Positions 6,945 to 18,283 of a stretch of DNA of 19,270 bases are shown here, one piece after another. Positions within the stretch are counted from its first letter, which is position 1. Every line of letters begins with the position of its first letter. This DNA comes from a virus (Duplodnaviria > Heunggongvirae > Uroviricota > Caudoviricetes): positions 1-19,270 of the IMG/VR virus record IMGVR_UViG_2648501186_000011; one strand, given 5' to 3'. Made by a program: the position numbers and the translations under genes. Under the pieces are notes generated by a model. That model did no database searches and was not told the DNA's origin. It worked only from the letters and a program-made list of their open reading frames with translations.

Positions 6945-8870
6945 TTAGAAGTTATTAACCCAGCTATTACGACGCACAGGACGCGCCATAGGACGACGAT
7001 TAGGCTTATTGTGAGGGATTGGCTTAGTTTCCTGTTTTTGCTCGTCAGAATGCGATTTAGGAGCTTCTACGGCGGTTTCTGTTTCACGGTTCAGCTTTTC
7101 TTTCAGTGCAATGAGTTTATCCCATGACATTTTTGAAAGAACATAGCGAGAAGCAGCCAGACAATACACAAAACAGTCGAGGCATTCGTTCCTCTGCGAT
7201 CCGGGATTTTTCACCCAACGTGTTCCGGTAGCGGTGCGCTTGATGGACTCACTAAGAAGCTGATCGAGATAGTCATCAGGAACGGTGTGTGATATCTCTA
7301 AGCCAATATGCGGATTATCCTTCAAGTTGCGTGTTAATAGCTCACGAACAGCGGTTTTACCGACGTTTACACCCAACATAAGCAATTCGTGACCACCCGT
7401 GGTAGTTGGCTTAACCGGAATCAGTGGAGCGTTACCGGAGGAACTCCCTTTAATGGCATGAAGATTTTTCCATTTGGTGCAAATGCGGTAGCCAGCTTGT
7501 GTAAATTTACCGTTCGAAGTATCAAGGAAACTAGCCAGAACAGGAACACGCTGGCCTGATACCGTGGTAAACCTGCTTTTCTGGAAGTTGATTAGCTTAT
7601 CCCATACAGGTGATTCGTATCTCTCACAGTTATAATCTCGGAAGACACGGTGATCGAGGATGTAAATCTTATCTTTCGCGATGCCTAGCATAGTTGACTC
7701 GACGCGATCCAACTGCTGGTCCACGCCAAATGTGGCGAAAATAACATCATCTGGGATATTTTCTACACAAACTTCGGTTTTCAGTTGTTCCAGTTCGTTG
7801 ACTTCTACCGCTGTTTCTGCGTCATCGTACACAGTGCCGAGAACTGTATTGTAAAAACTTTGTAAATCAAAGGTTTGCCACGCTTGCGAGAAGTCAGAAA
7901 CACATGATTTGATAGAGCTAAAAGGTGAATACAGACGGCTGATCCAGAATCCTGCTACATCACTTTCACGGGTAGCTCTCCATTCTCCTTGTGCAACCGC
8001 TCTAATGCGATCCCCTTCTGACCAATCACTCTGGCAATGAGGGCAAACATAACGGGCGCTTTCAACACATGGCAGATTGCGACCATCCTGATTTTTCCAC
8101 TCGAACTTAACATTTTCCCACTCGATCACCTGGTGTTTCCCGCAATGCGGACAAGGAACAAAGAATTTACGCTGATCACTTGATAACCATTGTTGATTAA
8201 TCGGTCCCAGCTTAGTGGTCGGGGTACTGGAAACGATAATTCTTGCTTCATCCCCGAAAGTGGTTGCGCGGTTAGCCGCAAGTGCAATCGGATCGCCCTC
8301 TTCACTAGCACTGGCAGCATCACATTCATCAAGCAGAATCAACGGGCTGGTTTTTGAACGCAAGGTTGATGGGCTAGTAAGCGATACCATGTAAAGAAAA
8401 TGATTAGTCTTAAGCTGAATCTGGCTATTGTTATTAACAGCGTTGCGATCATTCTTGTCGGTGATTGCTTCGCGTAATGCCGGACATGCTTCAATGGCTG
8501 GTCGGATCTTCCCGCTTAGGTACTGAGCGGTTTCCTTCGTGGTTGCTTGGCCTATGATGATATTGCTGGGATCGTTAGCTATCTTATTGAATAATATACC
8601 ATTAAGGATGGAAGTTTTGCCGATCTGGGCACTTGTACAAAAAATGTACTTTTTCTTATTCTCTAAGAAAGGAGCATCAATCATGCCTTTCTGAAAGCTG
8701 GTTAATTTAATTTTAGCGCCAGCTTGTGGTCCATCCACTAGGATCATGTTTTCCTCGCACCATTCAGATGGTAAACGCTTAATTGGCGGTCGGATATGTT
8801 TTGATACTTCGTTAAAAATTCGCTTGAGTTTAAATTTATTTGAGAGTTTTTTCACCGTGATTATCCTCAT
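6945..8870 (-). CDS. Terminase large subunit, lambda gpA family (641 aa)
   Basis: Similar in length to lambda gpA as I recall it. Walker A-like [10 protein letters not shown], Walker B-like [11 protein letters not shown], a Cys pair [13 protein letters not shown], and a C-terminal [16 protein letters not shown] that resembles the lambda gpA C-terminus (from memory). No SD before the ATG, and an in-frame stop 18 nt upstream excludes a longer N-terminus. Confidence 0.85.
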
Positions 8871-8925
8871 ATCAACAATATGTTGTATTTAGATAAATAC
8901 GGGTATTAAGATTTAAGGGGGTTGT

Positions 8926-9531
8926 ATGCTAATTAATCAGCAACAAAGAGATGAATTAGAATTAGCATTTTCTTATTGTACCGGTCATGAATATCGTTTA
9001 CCAGTTAAGCACAAGCATTTAAAAACAGATATAACCACTTCTGGCTTTAGTCGTGATGAAGCGAAACAGATTTTAATCGAGTTGTATCGCGATCATGGGT
9101 ATACCGATATTCATAACTTCTTTAAGAAGCATCGCACATCACAGACAGAGTTCCAGAGAGTCCGTGAATGGTTTGATTTTGATATCAAGCGTTATTATCG
9201 AGTGGATGACGGTCCTATCTATCGGTTGCAGTGGACACCGATCAGGGAAGTGTTGAAACAGAAGAGATTGAATCATGCCATTACACGCTATCGTAACGAG
9301 GCTTTCAAGAAAGGCTATGGTGATACAAGGGAACTATTCGTTGAACTCGCTAACGTGAAATATAGCCACTATTACAACGATCCTACAGGGTTCTTCGAAG
9401 TGCTTCGCAAGGTTGATATTAGTCGGGGTACATATTATTCACGGCTGAGGAAGTACGGGATTAAGGCAGAGTTCTTTATGTCGGTTGACGACTCACCCAT
9501 GTTCAAGATAAAATCTAAGTCCTCTAAATAA
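8926..9531 (+). CDS. Hypothetical basic protein (201 aa) with C-terminal HTH-like motif
   Basis: ORF track; SD AAGGGGG 5 nt upstream. The C-terminal VDISRGTYYSRLRKYGIK resembles the recognition helix of the two small GRP-HTH proteins in this window. Confidence 0.6.
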   Translation: MLINQQQRDELELAFSYCTGHEYRLPVKHKHLKTDITTSGFSRDEAKQILIELYRDHGYTDIHNFFKKHRTSQTEFQRVREWFDFDIKRYYRVDDGPIYRLQWTPIREVLKQKRLNHAITRYRNEAFKKGYGDTRELFVELANVKYSHYYNDPTGFFEVLRKVDISRGTYYSRLRKYGIKAEFFMSVDDSPMFKIKSKSSK

Positions 9532-9566
9532 TATTGAGAAATCACTATTGTTTGGAGGAAACTACT

Positions 9567-9794
9567 ATGACTACTAAAGCTACTCGCGGTCGCCCTGCCC
9601 GTTTTACCCGTGAACAGATGGCTGATATTGCCTACGCTTACTATACAGCGGATCGCGGGAAGGAATCGAAAGAACAGATTCTTAGTGAACATGGGATTTC
9701 AGTAGCCCAATTCTATAAGAATATGAAGAAGTTAGACATTAAATTCTATGTTCAGATCGATGACGGTCAGATCGTAGAAGCAACAGGTTTTTGA
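9567..9794 (+). CDS. Small DNA-binding protein, GRP arm plus resolvase/Hin-type HTH (75 aa; start refined from 9534)
   Basis: ATG at 9567 has SD GGAGGA 7 nt upstream. The N-terminal TRGRPARFT is an AT-hook/Hin-like minor-groove arm and HGISVAQFYKNMKKL is a resolvase-type HTH. Paralogous to the 14077..14292 product. Confidence 0.6.
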   Translation: MTTKATRGRPARFTREQMADIAYAYYTADRGKESKEQILSEHGISVAQFYKNMKKLDIKFYVQIDDGQIVEATGF

Positions 9795-9809: not shown

Positions 9810-9833
9810 GCCACTCTTCGGAGTGGCTTTTTT
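9810..9833 (+). terminator. Intrinsic terminator after the 8926-9794 module
   Basis: GCCACUC-UUCG-GAGUGGC followed by UUUUUU. Confidence 0.75.
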
Positions 9834-10607: not shown

Positions 10608-11480
10608 TTAAATTCCAAAGTATTCCAGCGATCCGGCGTTCTTACGAATCAGTGCGGCAGTATTATTGACGATTGCACGAGCATTGTTAGGCTGCGGTAA
10701 TTTCAAAGTTGCTCGTTGTTCTTCTTCAATCAATCCCAATTTAACCAGCACAGGTAAACAGTCAGTTGTGAACTCAAGCTGACCATGTGCTGATTGTCGA
10801 GCGTACATGTAAGCAGGAGGAAGAACATCATAGCCGTTAGGCTTACCAGAAGCATCCAGACGACGCTCAATGTGTTTAGCCTCACATAACCCTTTCAGAA
10901 TGCGCTGTACCTTGCCAGAGCCTCGTTTTTCGCCCAATAAGCGGGTTAAGCTGTGTGCGTCAATGGCACGGCGAACATGGAGATCAACTAATTGTTGATT
11001 CTCGTGAAGCAATTGTTCTTTTTCTTCTTCAAGTTTAACCGCTTCGCGCATCCAGTCGAGCTTAGTCATCTTGCTTGCGTCTGGGAACGGATTAGCTTCT
11101 TTGTTTGCCAATTCTGTTAGTAAACGTGCGTTTTCCTCTTTCAGAATCTTCCATTCTTTAATTACACGATTACGAATCGGTGTGCTATATCCAGTGACAA
11201 GAGTCATGCAAAGTTCTTCGTTCAAATGGCATACCGGATCTTTAACAACAATACCTAAGCCATTGATTTTCTCCACAAGACCAAAATTGGACTCCTGCGG
11301 GATACCCAATTCTTTGTACATCACGCGAATGTCACGCAAAACATGTTTATGTTTCTTTCCGGTAAACTCGGCGATCTGGAAAGATGACATAGTTAATTCT
11401 TTTTCTACAGAGTCGTTTGCAGCAACCAGAGACACGGAAGCAGTTTTAACAGCAGTATTCATAGTAGTAACAGTATTCAT
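10608..11480 (-). CDS. Rha-family phage regulatory protein / antirepressor-like (290 aa)
   Basis: N-terminal FQIAEFTGKKHKHVLRDIRVMYKELGI matches the HxxVLRDI signature I associate with the Rha family. The start is ambiguous between M1 (11480, SD AAGGGG 10 nt upstream) and M7 because of an 18-bp tandem duplication. Confidence 0.65.
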   Translation of the reverse strand: MNTVTTMNTAVKTASVSLVAANDSVEKELTMSSFQIAEFTGKKHKHVLRDIRVMYKELGIPQESNFGLVEKINGLGIVVKDPVCHLNEELCMTLVTGYSTPIRNRVIKEWKILKEENARLLTELANKEANPFPDASKMTKLDWMREAVKLEEEKEQLLHENQQLVDLHVRRAIDAHSLTRLLGEKRGSGKVQRILKGLCEAKHIERRLDASGKPNGYDVLPPAYMYARQSAHGQLEFTTDCLPVLVKLGLIEEEQRATLKLPQPNNARAIVNNTAALIRKNAGSLEYFGI

Positions 11481-11568: not shown

Positions 11569-11901
11569 TTACCAATCGATTTCTACTTGGTCTTCTTCAT
11601 AATAAGGAATCGCATATTCATAACGCCAATTTTCGATGATTTCACGTTCTTCATTAGTAAGAAGGTGATTGTTAACTGGAGTCGCATTGTGATTACCAGC
11701 TTCGAATTGCTCGCGAACTTCCAGCATTGCATGAATACCAGTTAAGGACATCAGATCAAACGGAACATGCATACTACGGGAGATAGTTTCACGGGATACG
11801 CCCCAATCATTTTCTACATGGCTAGGGGTTACAGAAACGGTTTTGCCGGAGATTTTAACAGTCCAGTCATACAGGGATTTAGTGATGGTAAATTCTTTCA
11901 T
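11569..11901 (-). CDS. Hypothetical protein (110 aa)
   Basis: ORF track; SD AGAGGA upstream; promoter-like sequence immediately upstream. Confidence 0.6.
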   Translation of the reverse strand: MKEFTITKSLYDWTVKISGKTVSVTPSHVENDWGVSRETISRSMHVPFDLMSLTGIHAMLEVREQFEAGNHNATPVNNHLLTNEEREIIENWRYEYAIPYYEEDQVEIDW

Positions 11902-11957
11902 GTTACATCCTCTTTACAAATCTAGGTCAAATAGGTTCAAAGTTGTCAAGTGCGATA

Positions 11958-11986
11958 ATCATAAAAAAGTTTGAAGATATTGTCAA
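11958..11986 (-). promoter_or_regulatory. Sigma70-like promoter: TTGACA, 17-nt spacer, TATGAT
   Basis: Read on the minus strand: -35 at plus 11981-11986, -10 at plus 11958-11963. The -35 overlaps the palindrome at 11980-12000. Confidence 0.6.
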
Positions 11987-12000
11987 ATACCCCTTGACAA
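11980..12000. promoter_or_regulatory. Operator-like palindrome TTGTCAA-N7-TTGACAA
   Basis: Perfect 7-bp inverted repeat with a 7-bp spacer. Further TTGTCAAG, GGTCAAA, GTTCAAA and GTTGACC half-site-like copies between 11923 and 12018. Confidence 0.5.
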
Positions 12001-12022
12001 GACGCCAAAGGGTTGACCTAAC

Positions 12023-12490
12023 TTACAGCATATCTAAGCCTTCATCGTAACCATAGAAGCCATTCTGAGAAGAGAAACAGATTGGAGCGTAGTCGTCGTC
12101 ATCTTCGTCTTGTTCATCGCGTTCTGGTGCTTTCTGAGCGGTTTCTTTGCCGTAGTTAAACATTGCTTCATCCAGTTCATAGACAGTAACGAAGCTACCC
12201 AGGTCAATGTCACCGGAACGGACTTCAAACGGAAGATCATCACGAACAATAATTGCTGGTAGATTCTGGTACTTTAAGCGTTCTTCATCGGTGAAGACGT
12301 TAACAACAATGGTCGGCTTCTTATTACGGCAAAACGCATACCATGCACTAGAGAAATGAGATTCATCAGAGTTGAAAAGAATGTTGTAACCACGTTCACG
12401 GAACATCTTCATTAACTTGTCATTGTGGAAGCTATCAGCATCAAAACCTAACAGGATGAAAGGAGTAGTGGTAGTCATTTTATGGTTCAT
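12023..12490 (-). CDS. Hypothetical acidic protein (155 aa)
   Basis: ORF track; SD AGAGGA 8 nt upstream. First gene leftward of the repeat hub. An inverted repeat AGTGAA-N9-TTCACT (12512-12532) lies in its leader. Confidence 0.6.
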   Translation of the reverse strand: MNHKMTTTTPFILLGFDADSFHNDKLMKMFRERGYNILFNSDESHFSSAWYAFCRNKKPTIVVNVFTDEERLKYQNLPAIIVRDDLPFEVRSGDIDLGSFVTVYELDEAMFNYGKETAQKAPERDEQDEDDDDYAPICFSSQNGFYGYDEGLDML

Positions 12491-12564
12491 AGTGGAAATC
12501 CTCTAAAAGAAAGTGAATCAAGTAAGTTCACTATTATTTATAAAGAGAAAATTCTTGTTATTAT

Positions 12565-12882
12565 GAAAAGAGTGATCTGGTAGAGTCCAAAACTGGTCTG
12601 TACTTGAAAGGTGATTGGATTCAGTCGGGCTAAAGCCCTCCTTCATAGATTTTGATTAAATCATCACCAAAACGAAGAAGTATCTTTAGAATATAAGAAT
12701 CTTTCTTTTGAAGAAATAATAATAATCAAACAAGATGGACGCTCCCTGAGCGTCTGCGAAGCATATCTAATTCCTTCCAGTATCATCAAAGTGATCTAGA
12801 ATCAGTTTGTAATCATTATCTTCAAAGTGATTGTAATATCTTTATCTTGAAAGTGATTATAACTACCTTCTTCAAAGTGATC
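12565..12882. repeat. Direct-repeat family (A/T)TCTTSAAAGTGAT, four good and two degenerate copies
   Basis: Cores at 12787-12795, 12823-12831, 12849-12857 and 12873-12881 spaced 24-36 bp; degenerate copies near 12565-12577 and 12603-12616. Confidence 0.7.
12738..12754. other. Perfect palindrome GACGCTC-cct-GAGCGTC
   Basis: 7-bp inverted repeat with a 3-nt spacer in non-coding DNA. Confidence 0.4.
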
Positions 12883-12943
12883 TTGAATCATCATGTAAAC
12901 CAGATTAAAATCCCTTCCTGAATGATTTCAAAACAGATTACTC

Positions 12944-12959
12944 GCGCCCCGCAGGGCGC
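12944..12959 (+). other. Hairpin GCGCCC-CGCA-GGGCGC followed by a T-rich stretch
   Basis: 6-bp stem then ATAATATTCTTTTCTTTT on the plus strand; terminator-like, sharing the GCCCCGCAGG core with 6921-6940. Confidence 0.4.
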
Positions 12960-13074
12960 ATAATATTCTTTTCTTTTATCTACAATCTCTTTCATACCAA
13001 CTCTTTACTATTAACTATTACATATTACATATGACACCCTTCTAAGCCTTGTCCTGTCTGGGTTTCCGTGATTT

Positions 13075-13166
13075 TTGTACATCCTTGTACATCGTAGTAC
13101 ATGTGTTGTACATCCTTGTACATCCTTGTACACGTCACGTACATAGATGTACATCCTTGTACATCT
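13075..13166. repeat. Helically phased array of nine TTGTACATCC-type repeats
   Basis: GTACA begins at 13077, 13087, 13097, 13108, 13118, 13128, 13139, 13149 and 13159, a 10-11 bp period, so every copy is on one face of the helix. Confidence 0.8.
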
Positions 13167-13249
13167 AGGTTAAAAACCAATCAAAAATAGCCATAAAATC
13201 ACCATTTTGAGGGTGTATTTGCTCAATATTTCATCGTGTTTTTGTGATT

Positions 13250-13322
13250 CTGTACAGCAAATCTGTGTCTTGTACACCTTGTACATCTAATACATGTCTT
13301 GTACACCTTGTACATCTAATAC
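13250..13322. repeat. Second TGTACA cluster with two ~28-bp direct repeats
   Basis: gtcttgtacaccttgtacatctaatac occurs twice (about 13267-13293 and 13296-13322). GTACA at 13252, 13272, 13281, 13301 and 13310. Confidence 0.75.
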
Positions 13323-13495
13323 CGGGGAATAGCCCCCCTAATACCGGGGGATTTGTGGATACTAATACCGGGGAAAAAAAACCTAATACCGGGGGATTTT
13401 TATGTGGATGAATGATGGCCTAATCCGGGGGATTCTCTTACAGGACGGTTATCATTTACCCCCTAATACCGGGGAAATTAACCTAATCCGGGGGA
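13316..13495. repeat. Seven iteron-like direct repeats CTAAT(A)CCGGGG(G)A with DnaA-box-like motifs
   Basis: Copies start at 13316, 13338, 13362, 13383, 13420, 13463 and 13483, mostly 20-24 bp apart. TGTGGATAc (13353-13361) and TGTGGATGA (13403-13411) resemble the DnaA box TGTGGATAA. An AT-rich stretch follows at 13540-13640. Confidence 0.75.
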
Positions 13496-13643
13496 TTTTT
13501 GCTTCCAAAACGGGGATATCGCGGGGAAACCCTTAAATTCATTCAAATATTTTGATAGAAAATTCTTGTATATTATTTAACCAAAAAATCATCAAAAATC
13601 GCTGTAGCTTAATGATTTAAAAGGAATTTTCAAAAGGTCACCG

Positions 13644-13652
13644 TGCTATAAT
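13644..13652 (+). promoter_or_regulatory. Possible extended -10 promoter element (TGcTATAAT)
   Basis: TATAAT at 13647-13652 with TG at 13644-13645; only a weak -35 (TTTTCA region). Confidence 0.35.
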
Positions 13653-13732
13653 AGGTTATAAAGGTTGATAATCATTATTCGCCATTTTCACACAAAAATT
13701 TTGATAGTCTTTTCTCGCTTAGGTCAAGGGTA

Positions 13733-13761
13733 TTGACATCTGTCAAGGATTATTTTATGCT
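13733..13761 (+). promoter_or_regulatory. Sigma70-like promoter TTGACA, 17-nt spacer, TATGCT, with overlapping palindrome
   Basis: -35 at 13733-13738, -10 at 13756-13761. The palindrome TTGACA-tc-TGTCAA (13733-13746) recalls the 11980-12000 operator-like site. Confidence 0.5.
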
Positions 13762-13942
13762 TTTTCTCGTTGGTAGGGGTTGAAATTTTCAAAACAATCC
13801 CCATATAGATGATAAGCAAGATTTTCTCGCTACTAAATACATGTGAGCGATGATTATGACTCACTGACCTGAAAAGCTGAAACAGCATAAAATTCTAAAA
13901 AATGCGGTTTTCAGTTTTTCAAAAAGGGGTACAGGAGTCAGA

Positions 13943-13984
13943 ATGATTAAAAAATCGCCAGATAATATTCTGTCTATAGCGTAA
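13943..13984 (+). other. 13-codon mini-ORF (MIKKSPDNILSIA) with a strong SD
   Basis: AGGAG (13932-13936) 6 nt before the ATG at 13943; stop at 13982-13984. It is followed about 35 nt later by the terminator hairpin at 14021-14041, a leader-peptide-like arrangement. Confidence 0.35.
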
Positions 13985-14020
13985 AACTAAGCGCATTACA
14001 GAATAATATAAATATCATCG

Positions 14021-14041
14021 AGAGCGGTTAACGCTCTTTTT
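14021..14041 (+). terminator. Intrinsic terminator/attenuator upstream of the first rightward gene
   Basis: AGAGCG-GUUAA-CGCUCU followed by UUUUU, 20 nt upstream of the SD for the 14077 gene. Confidence 0.6.
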
Positions 14042-14076
14042 AATAAGAAAGATTTGTCTCTTAAGGGGAAGAAACT

Positions 14077-14292
14077 ATGAAAAACTCAATCATGGGGCGT
14101 CCGGTTAAAATCACCGAAGAAAAATACAAAGAAATCCTGATTGCTTACCACTCACAAGTTAATGCAACGAATGCTGATCGTGATGCACTTCTGGCAAAAT
14201 ATGGAATTACTCGCCGGACGTTTTCAAGGCTAGCTCATCGTTACCCAAATGTGAAAGTCGTAACTAAAGTGGTGAATGTAGAAATAGCATAA
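14077..14292 (+). CDS. Small DNA-binding protein, GRP arm plus resolvase/Hin-type HTH (71 aa)
   Basis: SD AAGGGG 8 nt upstream. MGRPVKIT...LLAKYGITRRTFSRLAHRY is paralogous to the 9567..9794 product. Confidence 0.65.
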   Translation: MKNSIMGRPVKITEEKYKEILIAYHSQVNATNADRDALLAKYGITRRTFSRLAHRYPNVKVVTKVVNVEIA

Positions 14293-17348: not shown

Positions 17349-17906
17349 TTACGACACATCAAATTCATCGTCTTCTTGTTCTTCTTCCGGTTCTTCCTGC
17401 TTCACTTCCTCATCTTCTGAGTATTCATCGTAGGCATCAAGATCCGGTGAAATCATAATATCCCCGATCTCATTCAAACGAGCGGAAATGATATCCTTCA
17501 ATGTTTCTTTCAAAGTACGCTGATCCGTTGCAGCTTCCATAATTTTTAGAGTGTCTACCGTCGCCACCTGCATCATGGTCTGGCGTACATCACCACAAAA
17601 TCCGGCTAGAACTGTTTCTACATAACCTACAGGAATCAGATCATTTAGTTCGGTGCGGTTCTTAAGTTCGATGGCATCGGCCTCGCCTCTCGCCTTTCTT
17701 AATCGTTCTTGTTGGATCTGCGCTTGTACATCCACTTCCCTAAGTGGGTTAATGATGTTCTCAAGCACCCAGGCGATCGCTCTATCCCGTGGACAACGGC
17801 GGGTATTCGTATTATACGGAAGACCACGATCACGCCATTTCTGAACAGCCGGAAGGGAATACCCATACATTTTAGATAATTCGGTTAAAGTTACTTCTTG
17901 CGTCAT
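17349..17906 (-). CDS. Terminase small subunit, lambda Nu1 family (186 aa; start refined from 17981)
   Basis: ATG at 17904-17906 has SD AGAGGA 7 nt upstream; the ORF-track start has none. N-terminal HTH LTELSKMYGYSLPAVQKWRDRGLPY and central ERLRKARGEADAIELKN...VETVLAGFCGDV parallel lambda Nu1 as I recall it. Acidic C-terminal tail. Confidence 0.65.
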   Translation of the reverse strand: MTQEVTLTELSKMYGYSLPAVQKWRDRGLPYNTNTRRCPRDRAIAWVLENIINPLREVDVQAQIQQERLRKARGEADAIELKNRTELNDLIPVGYVETVLAGFCGDVRQTMMQVATVDTLKIMEAATDQRTLKETLKDIISARLNEIGDIMISPDLDAYDEYSEDEEVKQEEPEEEQEDDEFDVS

Positions 17907-18214
17907 GAAACTATCCTCTGAGCTAAAAATATGCGTAATTGTATTTAGACGAAATACGCAATATAACGGCCTATAACGCAATTTAAGAAAATCCCATGTG
18001 ACGGGGCGTTGAGAAGTGATTTAGCTCGTTGTAGGGCTTGTTTGGTGGCTTAACTAAACCAATTTGAAAAAGGCACAAGCGAGATTTAAACCGCGCCGGG
18101 CAAAACACGCCCTCTTTTGCCACCTATCACAGTACCTTTTTGTTGTCAAGTCTTTTTTATCGAATATTTTAAATTTTTTCATCTTTTTTCTCGTGCATTC
18201 ATCCGTTTTTTTCT

Positions 18215-18283
18215 CGGTCAAAATCAATGACTTGACCAGTTGACACTGATCCGGTCATCAATATAATCGGTCACACTTTGACC
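18215..18283. promoter_or_regulatory. Cluster of CGGTCA / TGACC half-sites around the lipoprotein promoter
   Basis: CGGTCA at 18215, 18252 and 18268; TTGACC at 18232 and 18278. Includes the palindrome GGTCA-cactt-TGACC (18269-18283) just downstream of the -10. Confidence 0.45.
18240..18267 (+). promoter_or_regulatory. Near-consensus sigma70 promoter TTGACA, 16-nt spacer, TATAAT
   Basis: -35 TTGACA at 18240-18245 and -10 TATAAT at 18262-18267, about 115 nt upstream of the lipoprotein start codon. Confidence 0.7.

What the first reader, a model, noticed from the sequence alone, without database searches (positions are those of the whole stretch)
11902..12022. Operator-like TTGTCAA-N7-TTGACAA palindrome overlapping a strong leftward promoter
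The -35 of the TTGACA/17/TATGAT promoter is the left arm of a perfect 7-bp inverted repeat, with four more half-site-like copies within 100 bp. A related palindrome (TTGACA-tc-TGTCAA) overlaps the rightward promoter at 13733-13746, so one regulator could control divergent early transcription.
Basis: seen in the sequence. Interest (0 to 1): 0.45.

Follow-up and report, generated by a model that had tools for sequence, protein, structure and literature searches.

The report
Operator half-sites around prophage early promoters
The palindrome is real: it belongs to a conserved set of TTGAC(A/C) protein-binding-like sites around three strong promoters of an uncharacterised E. coli/Salmonella prophage, most likely repressor operators whose binding protein is still unknown.

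Summary
The 121-bp gap between two leftward genes contains TTGACA/17/TATGAT (11986->11958, minus strand), the perfect TTGTCAA-N7-TTGACAA repeat (11980-12000), and four further TTGAC(A/C)-like copies. No dinucleotide shuffle of the window reached five copies in 121 bp (0 of 1000).

The window is part of a roughly 35-40 kb prophage integrated in hicB. The family occurs in about 1% of complete E. coli genomes and in Salmonella, and has no recognisable CI/Cro.

In 36 distinct variants, 23 of 24 columns of the four non-promoter half-sites are invariant, against 29 of 72 other intergenic columns. In a complete 40.8-kb prophage, half-site clusters occur only at three promoters: this one, 13722-13761 and 18216-18283. 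Diverged paralogous promoters in relatives and a Salmonella orthologue keep the half-sites while the surrounding sequence has changed. None of the extra copies has a -10 hexamer at promoter distance.

Best reading: these are operators of a phage-family regulator that occlude the -35, spacer and +1 regions. The two palindromes have opposite polarity, arm spacing varies (2-3, or 5-8), and the binding protein is not identified. One conserved small helix-turn-helix protein (9570-9794) is only a candidate.

This is a new member of a known kind, of moderate interest.

The parts
11902..12022 (-). Control region A: the whole gap between the stop codon of the 155-aa gene and the start codon of the 110-aa gene
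   Evidence: ORF map. Mean pairwise identity is 0.93 here, against 0.68 and 0.78 in the flanking coding sequences, across 37 sequences.
11981..11986 (-). -35 hexamer TTGACA of promoter A. It is also the right-pointing arm of the palindrome.
   Evidence: 4 of its 6 columns are invariant in 36 variants.
11958..11963 (-). -10 hexamer TATGAT of promoter A (17-nt spacer). The transcription start is inferred at about 11950-11951.
   Evidence: All 6 columns are invariant. The start site is inferred, not measured.
11980..12000 (.). Perfect inverted repeat TTGTCAA-N7-TTGACAA. The spacer is N6 in most relatives and N8 in paralogue A'.
11993..11999 (+). Half-site CTTGACA, read as TGTCAAG on the promoter strand, just upstream of the -35
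   Evidence: Invariant in 36 variants. Kept in paralogue A' and in Salmonella L060-62.
12013..12020 (+). Outer upstream half-site TTGACCTA (TAGGTCAA on the promoter strand), directly after the stop codon of the 155-aa gene
   Evidence: Kept in A' but absent in Salmonella L060-62.
11944..11950 (-). Half-site CTTGACA at about +2 to +7 of the inferred transcript
   Evidence: Invariant. A TTGAC[AC] copy sits at the same place (7-10 nt after the -10) in A', promoter C, Salmonella A and Salmonella L062 promoter B.
11935..11940 (-). Weak copy TTGAAC
   Evidence: Only 2 of 6 columns are invariant, and it is replaced in L029 and L031. Probably not essential.
11923..11930 (-). Outer downstream half-site TTGACCTA, 19 bp after the +2 site
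13720..13761 (+). Promoter B with half-sites: GGTCAA (13722-13727; variable in relatives), -35 TTGACA (13733-13738), TGTCAAG (13741-13747; in the spacer; invariant) and -10 TATGCT (13756-13761)
   Evidence: Alignment of 19 sequences. The same TTGAC-N2-3-TGTCAAG arrangement occurs in Salmonella L062 and L063.
18216..18283 (+). Promoter C (TTGACA/16/TATAAT, 12 of 12 consensus positions; 18240-18267) with flanking copies: GGTCAA at 18216-18221, TTGACC at 18232-18237 and TTGACC at 18278-18283. It drives a 190-aa lipoprotein gene.
   Evidence: The half-sites are kept in the diverged variant L048 while the flanks differ.
18144..18150 (-). Isolated CTTGACA copy upstream of terS, in the same intergenic region as promoter C
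   Evidence: Kept in L048.
9570..9794 (+). p86, a 75-aa protein with an RGRP arm, three helices and a beta-hairpin. It is a candidate (not shown) trans-acting factor.
   Evidence: Present in every relative that reaches this far. The arm and third helix are conserved at 59-99% overall identity. Model pLDDT is 68 and no fold match is significant. Pfam HTH_7 scores below threshold, E 0.034.
10608..11480 (-). Rha/Ant-like regulator gene, the second gene of the operon driven by promoter A
   Evidence: Pfam Phage_pRha, 5e-12. PHROG 63 'anti-repressor Ant', 1.2e-17.
11569..11901 (-). The 110-aa first gene of the promoter A operon. In about half of the relatives it is replaced by an unrelated 48-64-aa gene, with no change in the control region.

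Best explanation
Region 11902-12022 is the control region of a strong sigma-70 promoter. That promoter drives the leftward operon made up of the 110-aa protein, a Rha/Ant-like regulator and a 214-aa protein, in an uncharacterised temperate phage family of E. coli and Salmonella. Besides the -35 and -10 hexamers, it carries four conserved copies of a short recognition element, YTTGAC(A/C), with longer forms CTTGACA and TTGACCTA. Two copies lie upstream of the -35 and point away from it. Two lie downstream, at +2 and +21. I propose these are operators for a repressor encoded by the phage family. When occupied, the repressor covers the -35 and the transcription start and keeps the promoter shut in the lysogen, or shuts it off again after early expression. 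The same element marks promoter B (13733; the replication-type module), promoter C (18240; the right-end lipoprotein operon) and the promoters of inserted accessory ('moron') genes in relatives. One regulator, or a few paralogous ones, could therefore set the state of all of them.

Shown: the sites exist, they are clustered, they are conserved above background, they are restricted to promoters, and they are not promoters themselves.

Inferred: that a protein binds them, that the effect is repression, and which protein it is. Because orientation and spacing vary, binding is more likely by individually recognised half-sites (a monomeric or flexibly linked HTH, or paralogues with different geometry) than by one rigid dimer. 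The conserved 75-aa HTH-like protein p86 is my first candidate, at about 0.2.
For: 1. Clustering: 5 copies in 121 bp, and 0 of 1000 shuffles reach this. 15 of the 21 copies in the window lie in the 21% that is non-coding.
2. Prophage-wide restriction: in a complete 40.8-kb prophage the only clusters are at A, B and C. The longer forms CTTGACA (4 copies) and TTGACCTA (3 copies) occur nowhere else in it. A uniform-composition estimate predicts about 6 copies of the two words over the whole 40.8 kb, so their absence outside the promoters is suggestive.
3. Footprint: 23 of 24 half-site columns are invariant, against 29 of 72 other intergenic columns (Fisher p = 7e-7). The palindrome spacer and the -35/-10 spacer vary freely.
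4. The gap is more conserved (0.93) than both flanking genes. It stays the same whichever first gene follows it.
5. Diverged paralogues and orthologues keep the sites: A' in L053, the moron promoters in L051, L052, L062 and L065, Salmonella promoter A (L060-62) and Salmonella promoter B (L062, L063).
6. In 832 kb of related loci, the two composite arrangements occur only where the right-pointing copy has a -10 hexamer at 16-18 bp.
7. The extra copies have no -10 at promoter distance, on either strand (read directly).
8. The positions (-35, spacer, +2 to +9) are classic occlusion positions, and the promoters match 10-12 of 12 consensus positions, so they need repression rather than activation (established promoter logic).
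9. The family has no recognisable CI/Cro. It does have three paralogous small HTH-like proteins.
10. Distant relatives identified through the large terminase subunit (TerL), in other genera, lack both p86/p201 and the clusters.
Against: - There is no binding or expression data of any kind, and transcription start sites are inferred.
- The element is identical to the sigma-70 -35 consensus, so RNA polymerase itself is a possible binder.
- Orientation and spacing are inconsistent (arms facing outward with N5-8, or inward with N2-3), which is unlike well-studied dimeric operators.
- The upstream copy at B is variable in relatives.
- Relatives with other B modules lack the palindrome, and Salmonella L063/L064 have a different A region.
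- The candidate protein's fold match is not significant, and its own promoter region (8871-8925) carries no half-site.
- The inverted copies also allow a stable RNA hairpin at the 3' end of the upstream gene's mRNA.
- The half-site motif was defined from these same regions, so the enrichment statistics for the 7- and 8-mers are partly circular. Only their absence elsewhere is informative.
Confidence: 0.6

Rival explanations
1. There is no dedicated regulator. The extra TTGAC(A/C) copies are supernumerary -35-like elements bound by sigma-70 region 4 of RNA polymerase. They might capture or stack polymerase near strong early promoters, or compete with productive binding and so tune promoter strength.
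For: The element equals the -35 consensus. The copies accompany only strong sigma-70-type promoters. They are kept across phages whose proteins are all mosaic, which would fit an invariant host partner.
Against: The preferred flanks (C before TTGACA; TA after TTGACC) go beyond what the -35 consensus requires. Copies at +2 to +9 and on the opposite strand have no -10 partner. To my knowledge, no such mechanism is established for E. coli promoters. TTGACA is rarer than expected across the window as a whole (8 copies against 13.9), so the copies at these promoters are selected specifically.
Confidence: 0.15
2. The inverted copies upstream of the -35 exist to form an RNA hairpin at the 3' end of the 155-aa gene's mRNA. 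The hairpin would act as a weak terminator, insulator or stabiliser separating that gene from promoter A. The operator-like look would be a by-product.
For: The minus-strand RNA 12030->11975 folds at -19 kcal/mol with z = -3.9. The Salmonella orthologue also has a hairpin right after the stop codon, ACCCCC-TGTCAA-GGGGGT, at -14 kcal/mol.
Against: No U-tract follows the stem, and the terminator scan does not report it. RNAalifold gives a covariation term of -0.13 and no compensatory pair. The variable positions of the 3' arm (GGGG becoming GTGG, GGTG, GGAG or GGTA) mostly break pairs without compensation. The hairpin idea explains nothing about the copies at +2 and +21, or those at B, C, A' and the moron promoters.
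Confidence: 0.1
3. A host transcription factor of E. coli and Salmonella binds the sites, linking prophage early promoters to host physiology. For example, an FNR/CRP-family protein could bind TTGAC-N4-GTCAA at promoter B.
For: The sites are invariant in both host genera. The B palindrome matches 8 of 10 positions of the FNR core TTGAT-N4-ATCAA (my own comparison against the consensus as I recall it).
Against: The palindrome is centred at about -28, not at an activating position. Its spacing changes to N3 in L063. The A-type arrangement has the opposite polarity. I could not match the half-site set to any host factor consensus I know, and no tool here can test host factors.
Confidence: 0.08
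4. The conservation reflects a recombination 'linker' at a mosaic module boundary, not protein binding.
For: Gene replacements begin exactly at the start codon downstream of the region. High identity extends about 140 bp into the 3' end of the 155-aa gene.
Against: Within the gap, conservation is patterned by half-site rather than uniform. Paralogous promoters with otherwise unrelated sequence keep the same sites.
Confidence: 0.05

Closest known systems
Lambdoid CI/Cro operators (lambda OR/OL, 434, P22)
   Same: Short inverted repeats overlap the -35, -10 and +1 of strong early promoters, and the same recognition sequence is shared by leftward and rightward early promoters (established knowledge).
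   Different: There is no CI/Cro-like gene next to the sites. There is no tandem O1-O2-O3 array of fixed-length palindromes. Arm spacing and polarity vary. The two promoters are 1.75 kb apart.
P22 immI region: Pant controlled by Arc and Mnt
   Same: A near-consensus promoter drives a small first gene followed by an antirepressor-type gene; here that gene is Rha/Ant-like. Operators lie over the promoter core (P22 details are from my own knowledge).
   Different: The first gene is interchangeable and has no detected ribbon-helix-helix domain. There is no divergent mnt-like gene. The site sequences and layout differ.
P2 / WPhi / 186 type immunity repressor C operators
   Same: Repeated half-sites separated by several helical turns flank the core elements of the early promoter. 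Here the -35 copy and the +2 copy are direct repeats 36-38 bp apart. The P2 and WPhi layout is from my own knowledge; PMC1904263 appears.
   Different: Inverted copies are also present here. No C-like repressor gene or convergent Pe/Pc switch is seen.
Aca-controlled anti-CRISPR promoters
   Same: Consensus TTGACA/17/TATACT promoters overlap inverted repeats, and near-identical repeats occur at two separate operons of one element, bound by a small HTH autorepressor (PMC12658196).
   Different: Those repeats are long (11-bp arms, 2-nt spacer) and distinct from the -35. Here the half-site is the -35 hexamer itself. No Aca or Acr homology was found or tested.

Membership tests
Lambdoid CI/Cro-type operator | Inverted repeat overlapping core promoter elements | tested here: met
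   TTGTCAA-N7-TTGACAA includes the -35. TTGACA-NN-TGTCAA covers the -35 and spacer of promoter B.
Lambdoid CI/Cro-type operator | Fixed half-site spacing and polarity across all operators of one phage | tested here: not met
   Spacing is 5, 6, 7 or 8 with arms facing outward and 2-3 with arms facing inward. Both polarities occur in one prophage.
Lambdoid CI/Cro-type operator | Adjacent repressor gene of the CI/Cro (HTH_3 / XRE) type | tested here: not met
   No Pfam, PHROG or NCBIfam hit of that type in the window or at the prophage left end.
Lambdoid CI/Cro-type operator | Demonstrated repressor binding | not testable with these tools
   Requires EMSA, footprinting or ChIP.
P22 immI-type antirepressor control (Pant/Arc/Mnt) | Strong promoter driving an antirepressor-family gene | tested here: met
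   The second gene of the operon hits Phage_pRha (5e-12) and PHROG 63 'anti-repressor Ant' (1.2e-17). Antirepressor activity itself has not been tested.
P22 immI-type antirepressor control (Pant/Arc/Mnt) | Small ribbon-helix-helix autoregulator as the first gene, and a divergent mnt-like repressor gene | tested here: not met
   The first gene varies (110, 48, 64 or 72 aa) and has no family hit. The upstream neighbour is co-directional, not divergent.
Intrinsic (rho-independent) terminator | Stable GC-rich hairpin | tested here: met
   -19 kcal/mol, z = -3.9, for 12030->11975 on the minus strand.
Intrinsic (rho-independent) terminator | U-tract immediately after the stem | tested here: not met
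   The stem is followed by AAUAUCUUCAAAC. The terminator scan does not report it.
Intrinsic (rho-independent) terminator | Stem maintained by compensatory changes | tested here: inconclusive
   There are no compensatory pairs and the covariation term is -0.13. Most paired columns never vary, and the variable ones mostly break pairs.
Tandem or overlapping sigma-70 promoters | Each -35-like hexamer has a -10-like hexamer 16-18 bp downstream | tested here: not met
   Only 11986->11958 qualifies in this gap. The other copies lack a -10 on either strand (and direct reading).
FNR/CRP-family site (for the palindrome at promoter B) | TTGAT-N4-ATCAA with fixed spacing, centred at -41.5 or -61.5 for activation | tested here: not met
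   8 of 10 bases match, but the centre lies at about -28. Spacing becomes N3 between hexamers in L063. The consensus is from my own knowledge.
Known RNA families (Rfam) | Match to a covariance model | tested here: not met
   No match with E <= 1 in the whole window.

The most novel reading that the evidence does not exclude
A previously undescribed family of small proteins (p86, p71 and the C-terminal part of p201, each with an RGRP arm and three helices) forms the lysogeny and early-gene switch of a CI/Cro-less temperate phage family. These proteins would recognise single YTTGAC(A/C) half-sites, that is, the host -35 hexamer itself, in flexible arrangements. Any consensus promoter could then be brought under phage control simply by adding one or two extra -35-like copies nearby. 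That would explain why inserted moron and homing-endonuclease-like genes in relatives carry the same signature.
Probability: 0.2. Interest if true: 0.6.

Novelty: new member of a known kind. Interest (0 to 1): 0.4.

Why it matters
This prophage family sits in about 1% of complete E. coli genomes and also in Salmonella, yet almost none of its early proteins belong to a named family and it has no recognisable repressor. The half-site set gives a concrete, testable handle on its genetic switch: three promoters in one prophage, with defined bases to mutate. If the binder is one of the small orphan HTH-like proteins, that would define a new regulator family and a simple rule for how newly acquired genes are wired into phage control. 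If nothing binds, the sites would be an unusual case of conserved extra -35 elements. In either case the result concerns phage regulation and is not a new kind of biology.

Tried and rejected
1. DNA searches of phage and plasmid collections found no related record. The closest large terminase subunit (TerL) is 46% identical, in what looks like a chimeric record.
2. A genome-contig scan with the 155-aa protein found nothing. The TerL scan found only distant prophages in other genera, which lack both the region and p86. Footprinting was therefore limited to E. coli and Salmonella.
3. Pfam, PHROG and NCBIfam scans gave no family for p71, p86, p110, p155, p201, p214, p363 or p371.
4. PDB sequence searches with p71 and with the p86 profile found nothing relevant.
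5. The AlphaFold model of p86 shows three helices plus a beta-hairpin (pLDDT 68). Foldseek against the PDB gave only non-significant homeodomain-like hits, with the best E-value at 1. The HTH assignment therefore stays an inference.
6. I tested whether p71 binds the B palindrome by looking for co-variation. L063 has the L021-type HTH protein but also has the palindrome, whereas L021 lacks the palindrome, so the idea is rejected.
7. I tested whether the first gene of the promoter A operon is the autoregulator. That gene is swapped among relatives with no change in the sites, so it is unlikely to be the sole binder.
9. Literature searches for this prophage (hicB integration), for 'CapR' and for TTGACA-type operators returned nothing specific.
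10. Resemblances to a NarL heptamer, an IHF site, a Pho box and the P22 Mnt operator were considered from memory. I dropped them because the matching bases are not the conserved ones, or the spacing does not fit.

Full report
**What the sequence shows**

On the minus strand, the 121-bp gap 12022->11902 reads GTTAGGTCAACCCTTTGGCGTCTTGTCAAGGGGTATTTGACAATATCTTCAAACTTTTTTATGATTATCGCACTTGACAACTTTGAACCTATTTGACCTAGATTTGTAAAGAGGATGTAAC, followed by ATG. It lies between the stop codon of a 155-aa gene (12023-12490, minus) and the start codon of a 110-aa gene (11569-11901, minus).

- TTGACA/17/TATGAT (11986->11958), which matches 11 of 12 consensus positions and is the second-best promoter match in the window.
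- The perfect repeat TTGTCAA-N7-TTGACAA (11980-12000), whose left arm is the complement of the -35.
- Further copies at 12013-12018, 11944-11949, 11935-11940 (TTGAAC) and 11925-11930.
- TTGACA-TC-TGTCAA at 13733-13746, overlapping TTGACA/17/TATGCT.

**Is it more than chance?**

The window holds 21 TTGAC[AC] hexamers, which is about the number chance predicts. Their distribution is not what chance predicts:
- 15 of the 21 lie in the 21% of the window that is non-coding.
- Five lie in this gap, and none of 1000 dinucleotide shuffles placed five in any 121-bp stretch.

A promoter match of 11 of 12 or better is not rare on its own: the window has 2, shuffles average 0.6, and 11% of shuffles reach 2. 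The promoter assignment therefore rests on position, orientation towards a gene with a good ribosome-binding site, and conservation.

**Where the window comes from**

- No phage or plasmid record matches the DNA.
- The proteins flanking the gap occur on about 35-kb viral contigs from isolate genomes, and inside E. coli chromosomes.
- In strain RMDEC332 the element is a roughly 40-kb prophage that splits hicB. It carries a large serine recombinase and a UvsW-like helicase at one end. The window's right end lies close to the other attachment site.
- The gap itself is found in 54 of 5426 complete E. coli genomes. Salmonella enterica carries relatives.
- Apart from the large terminase subunit (TerL), portal, capsid, the small terminase subunit (TerS) and a Rha/Ant-like protein, the genes around the finding have no family assignment. 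No CI/Cro-type repressor is detectable.

**Conservation of the gap**

- Across 37 sequences, mean pairwise identity is 0.93 in the gap, against 0.68 and 0.78 in the flanking genes.
- The conservation inside the gap follows a pattern. In 36 distinct variants, 23 of 24 columns of the four non-promoter TTGAC(A/C) copies are invariant, and so are 6 of 6 columns of the -10. Only 29 of 72 other columns are invariant (Fisher p = 7e-7).
- The spacer inside the palindrome (GGGGTA, GGTGTG, GGTATA, GGGGCA and others) and the -35/-10 spacer vary freely.
- The weak TTGAAC copy is not well kept.
- The arm spacing is 6 in most relatives, 7 in the window and a few others, and 7 through an extra G in some.
- The downstream gene is exchanged for an unrelated 48-64-aa gene in about half of the relatives, with no change in the gap.

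**Other places with the same element**

In the complete RMDEC332 prophage, only three clusters of half-sites exist:
- The finding (promoter A).
- Promoter B (window 13722-13746).
- Promoter C (window 18216-18283; TTGACA/16/TATAAT, a 12 of 12 match, in front of a lipoprotein gene).

The longer forms CTTGACA (4 copies) and TTGACCTA (3 copies) occur only in these regions. They are absent from the remaining 40 kb. A uniform-composition estimate predicts about 6 copies of the two words over the whole 40.8 kb, so this absence is suggestive. Because I defined the motif on these same sites, only the absence elsewhere is informative.

At B, the -35 and the TGTCAAG in the spacer are invariant in 19 sequences, while the upstream GGTCAA varies. 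At C, the diverged variant L048 keeps the copies while the flanks differ.

**Paralogues and orthologues**

- A diverged copy of the whole layout (A') precedes a CapR/DUF723-type accessory ('moron') gene in L053: GTTAGGTCAA-N13-TGTCAAG-N8-TTGACA-17-TAATAT-N7-TTGACC. The rest of the sequence has changed.
- Other moron promoters carry TGTCAAG-N8-TTGACA (L051), GGTCA-N5-TGACC (L065) or TTGACC-NN-TGTCAA (L052, L062).
- Salmonella L060-62 keep TGTCAA-N7-TTGACA, then 16-17 nt, a -10, then N9-TTGACA, in an otherwise diverged gap.
- Salmonella L062 and L063 keep the B-type palindrome. L062 adds a TTGACA copy 8 nt after the -10.
- In 832 kb of related loci, the two composite arrangements occur only where the right-pointing copy has a -10 hexamer 16-18 bp downstream.
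- Distant relatives found through TerL, in other genera, have neither the clusters nor the small HTH-like proteins.

**What it is not**

- *Not tandem promoters.* The extra copies have no -10 partner on either strand.
- *No known RNA family.* Nothing in the window matches Rfam.
- *A hairpin is possible but unsupported.* The inverted copies do allow a stable RNA hairpin at the end of the 155-aa gene's mRNA (-19 kcal/mol, z = -3.9), and the Salmonella orthologue also has a hairpin there. Against this, no U-tract follows the stem, no pair shows compensatory change, and variable stem positions mostly break pairs. The hairpin also cannot account for the copies downstream of the promoter or at the other promoters.
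- *Not only a recombination linker.* That idea does not explain conservation patterned by half-site, or the paralogues.

**Most likely mechanism**

The promoters match 10-12 of 12 consensus positions, so they should fire without help and must be held off in a lysogen. The conserved copies sit at the -35, in the spacer (at B), and at +2 to +9 (at A, A', C, Salmonella A and L062 B). These are the classic positions for repression by occlusion. I therefore read them as operators of a regulator specific to this phage family. That regulator would control:
- The leftward Rha/Ant-type operon (A).
- The replication-type module (B).
- The right-end operon (C).
- Inserted morons in relatives.

The sites, their clustering, their conservation and their restriction to promoters are shown. 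Binding, the direction of the effect and the identity of the protein are inferred.

- The palindromes at A and B have opposite polarity: arms pointing outward at A, inward at B.
- Spacing varies (5-8, or 2-3), so a single rigid dimer is unlikely to bind both in the same way.
- Recognition of individual half-sites by a monomeric or flexibly linked HTH, or by paralogues with different geometry, fits better.
- B's palindrome is module-specific. Relatives with another iteron/initiator module have tandem consensus promoters flanked by a different direct repeat (TGTAGGTTTG) and no palindrome.
- A and B are 1.75 kb apart, not back to back.

**Candidate binders**

Three paralogous small proteins share a G-R-P arm followed by three helices: p71 (14077-14292), p86 (9570-9794) and the C-terminal part of p201 (8926-9531).
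- Pfam hits to HTH_7, HTH_23 and HTH_Tnp_1 are below threshold.
- The p86 model shows three helices plus a beta-hairpin at pLDDT 68, and its fold matches are not significant.
- p71 does not co-vary with the B palindrome.
- p86 is present in every relative that reaches that far. Its arm and third helix are conserved even at 59-70% overall identity, which matches the invariance of the sites. It is my first candidate, but only at about 0.2.
- A host factor, or RNA polymerase itself, cannot be excluded.

**Comparison with known systems**

- It works like lambdoid operators. It fails two defining features of that family: fixed geometry, and an adjacent CI/Cro-type gene.
- It resembles the P22 immI arrangement in driving an Ant-family gene from a consensus promoter. 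It lacks Arc- and Mnt-like genes.
- It resembles P2-type operators in having direct copies several helical turns apart around the core promoter (my own knowledge).
- It resembles Aca-controlled anti-CRISPR promoters in reusing one repeat at separate consensus promoters (PMC12658196).

**Verdict**

This is a new member of a known kind, namely promoter-overlapping operators, in an uncharacterised prophage family. The unusual point is that the recognition element is the -35 hexamer itself, used in flexible arrangements. Interest is 0.4.

Noticed in passing
window 12491-14076: This is 1.6 kb of non-coding DNA with three iteron sets: TCTTCAAAGTGAT x4 (12783-12881), CCTTGTACATC x5 or more (13075-13316) and CTAATACCGGGGGAT x7-8 (13315-13500). 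In relatives the whole block is exchanged together with the downstream small HTH gene and the 313-371-aa gene. The replacement blocks have other iterons: TTTCAGGGGCAAAAAT in L021, CCTCCTAC in L060, CTAGGGAT in L062 and CACATCGCAAA in L063. It looks like an exchangeable replication-origin or incompatibility module.
   Followed up: partly
window 13768-14050 (+): The transcript from promoter B would start with a leader of about 280 nt that folds at -79.9 kcal/mol (z = -6.8). The leader ends in a conserved intrinsic terminator (GAGAGCGGTTAACGCTCTTTTT, 14019-14045) just before the ribosome-binding site of p71. Leaders of other module types (159-410 nt) are equally structured (z = -4.4 to -7.9) and end at the same terminator. 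There is no Rfam match. It could be a regulatory or antitermination RNA, a primer RNA, or DNA-level origin repeats. The variants are too similar (>=93% identical) for a covariation test.
   Followed up: partly
window 13776-13806; also L021 just before its terminator: A hairpin element GGGGTTGAAA...ACAATCCCCATATA is shared between otherwise different leader modules, but at different positions within the leader.
   Followed up: no
window 8926-9794 (+): The genes for p201 and p86 form a rightward pair wedged between the leftward late operon (terL starts at 8870) and the leftward promoter A operon. They share a bidirectional terminator at 9810-9827. This orientation is what one expects of an immunity or maintenance cassette. 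Their 55-bp upstream gap has no TTGAC copy.
   Followed up: partly
window 17349-17906 (-) versus 6945-8870 (-): The small terminase subunit gene (terS) lies 8.5 kb from the large subunit gene (terL), on the far side of the early and replication region, next to the attachment-site end of the prophage.
   Followed up: no
L054/L055 (E. coli RMDEC332), and L046-L053, L060-L064: The prophage is integrated inside hicB in some strains and next to ghrA in others, including Salmonella. It uses a 559-aa large serine recombinase.
   Followed up: partly
L053:19364-20333, L051:16452-16838, L062:16819-17901, L063:2088-3137, L055:8177-10076: Genes with CapR, DUF723 and MUG113/T5orf172 domains, which resemble homing endonuclease genes, are inserted at different positions of the structural and end regions in different relatives. 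Most carry their own consensus promoter with TTGAC-type inverted copies.
   Followed up: partly
window 12023-12490 (-): The 155-aa protein has a very acidic C-terminal tail (EQDEDDDDY...DEGLDML). The tail is much more conserved than the N-terminal part (0.86-0.97 against 0.66-0.79 nucleotide identity). No family was found. This is typical of early anti-host or mimic proteins, but I did not test that.
   Followed up: no
window 11954-11963: GATAAT on the plus strand overlaps the minus-strand -10 TATGAT. A weak antisense, rightward start into the 155-aa gene is therefore conceivable. The three copies GGTCAA, GTTCAA and TGTCAA lie at 9-10-bp spacing over its -35 position.
   Followed up: no
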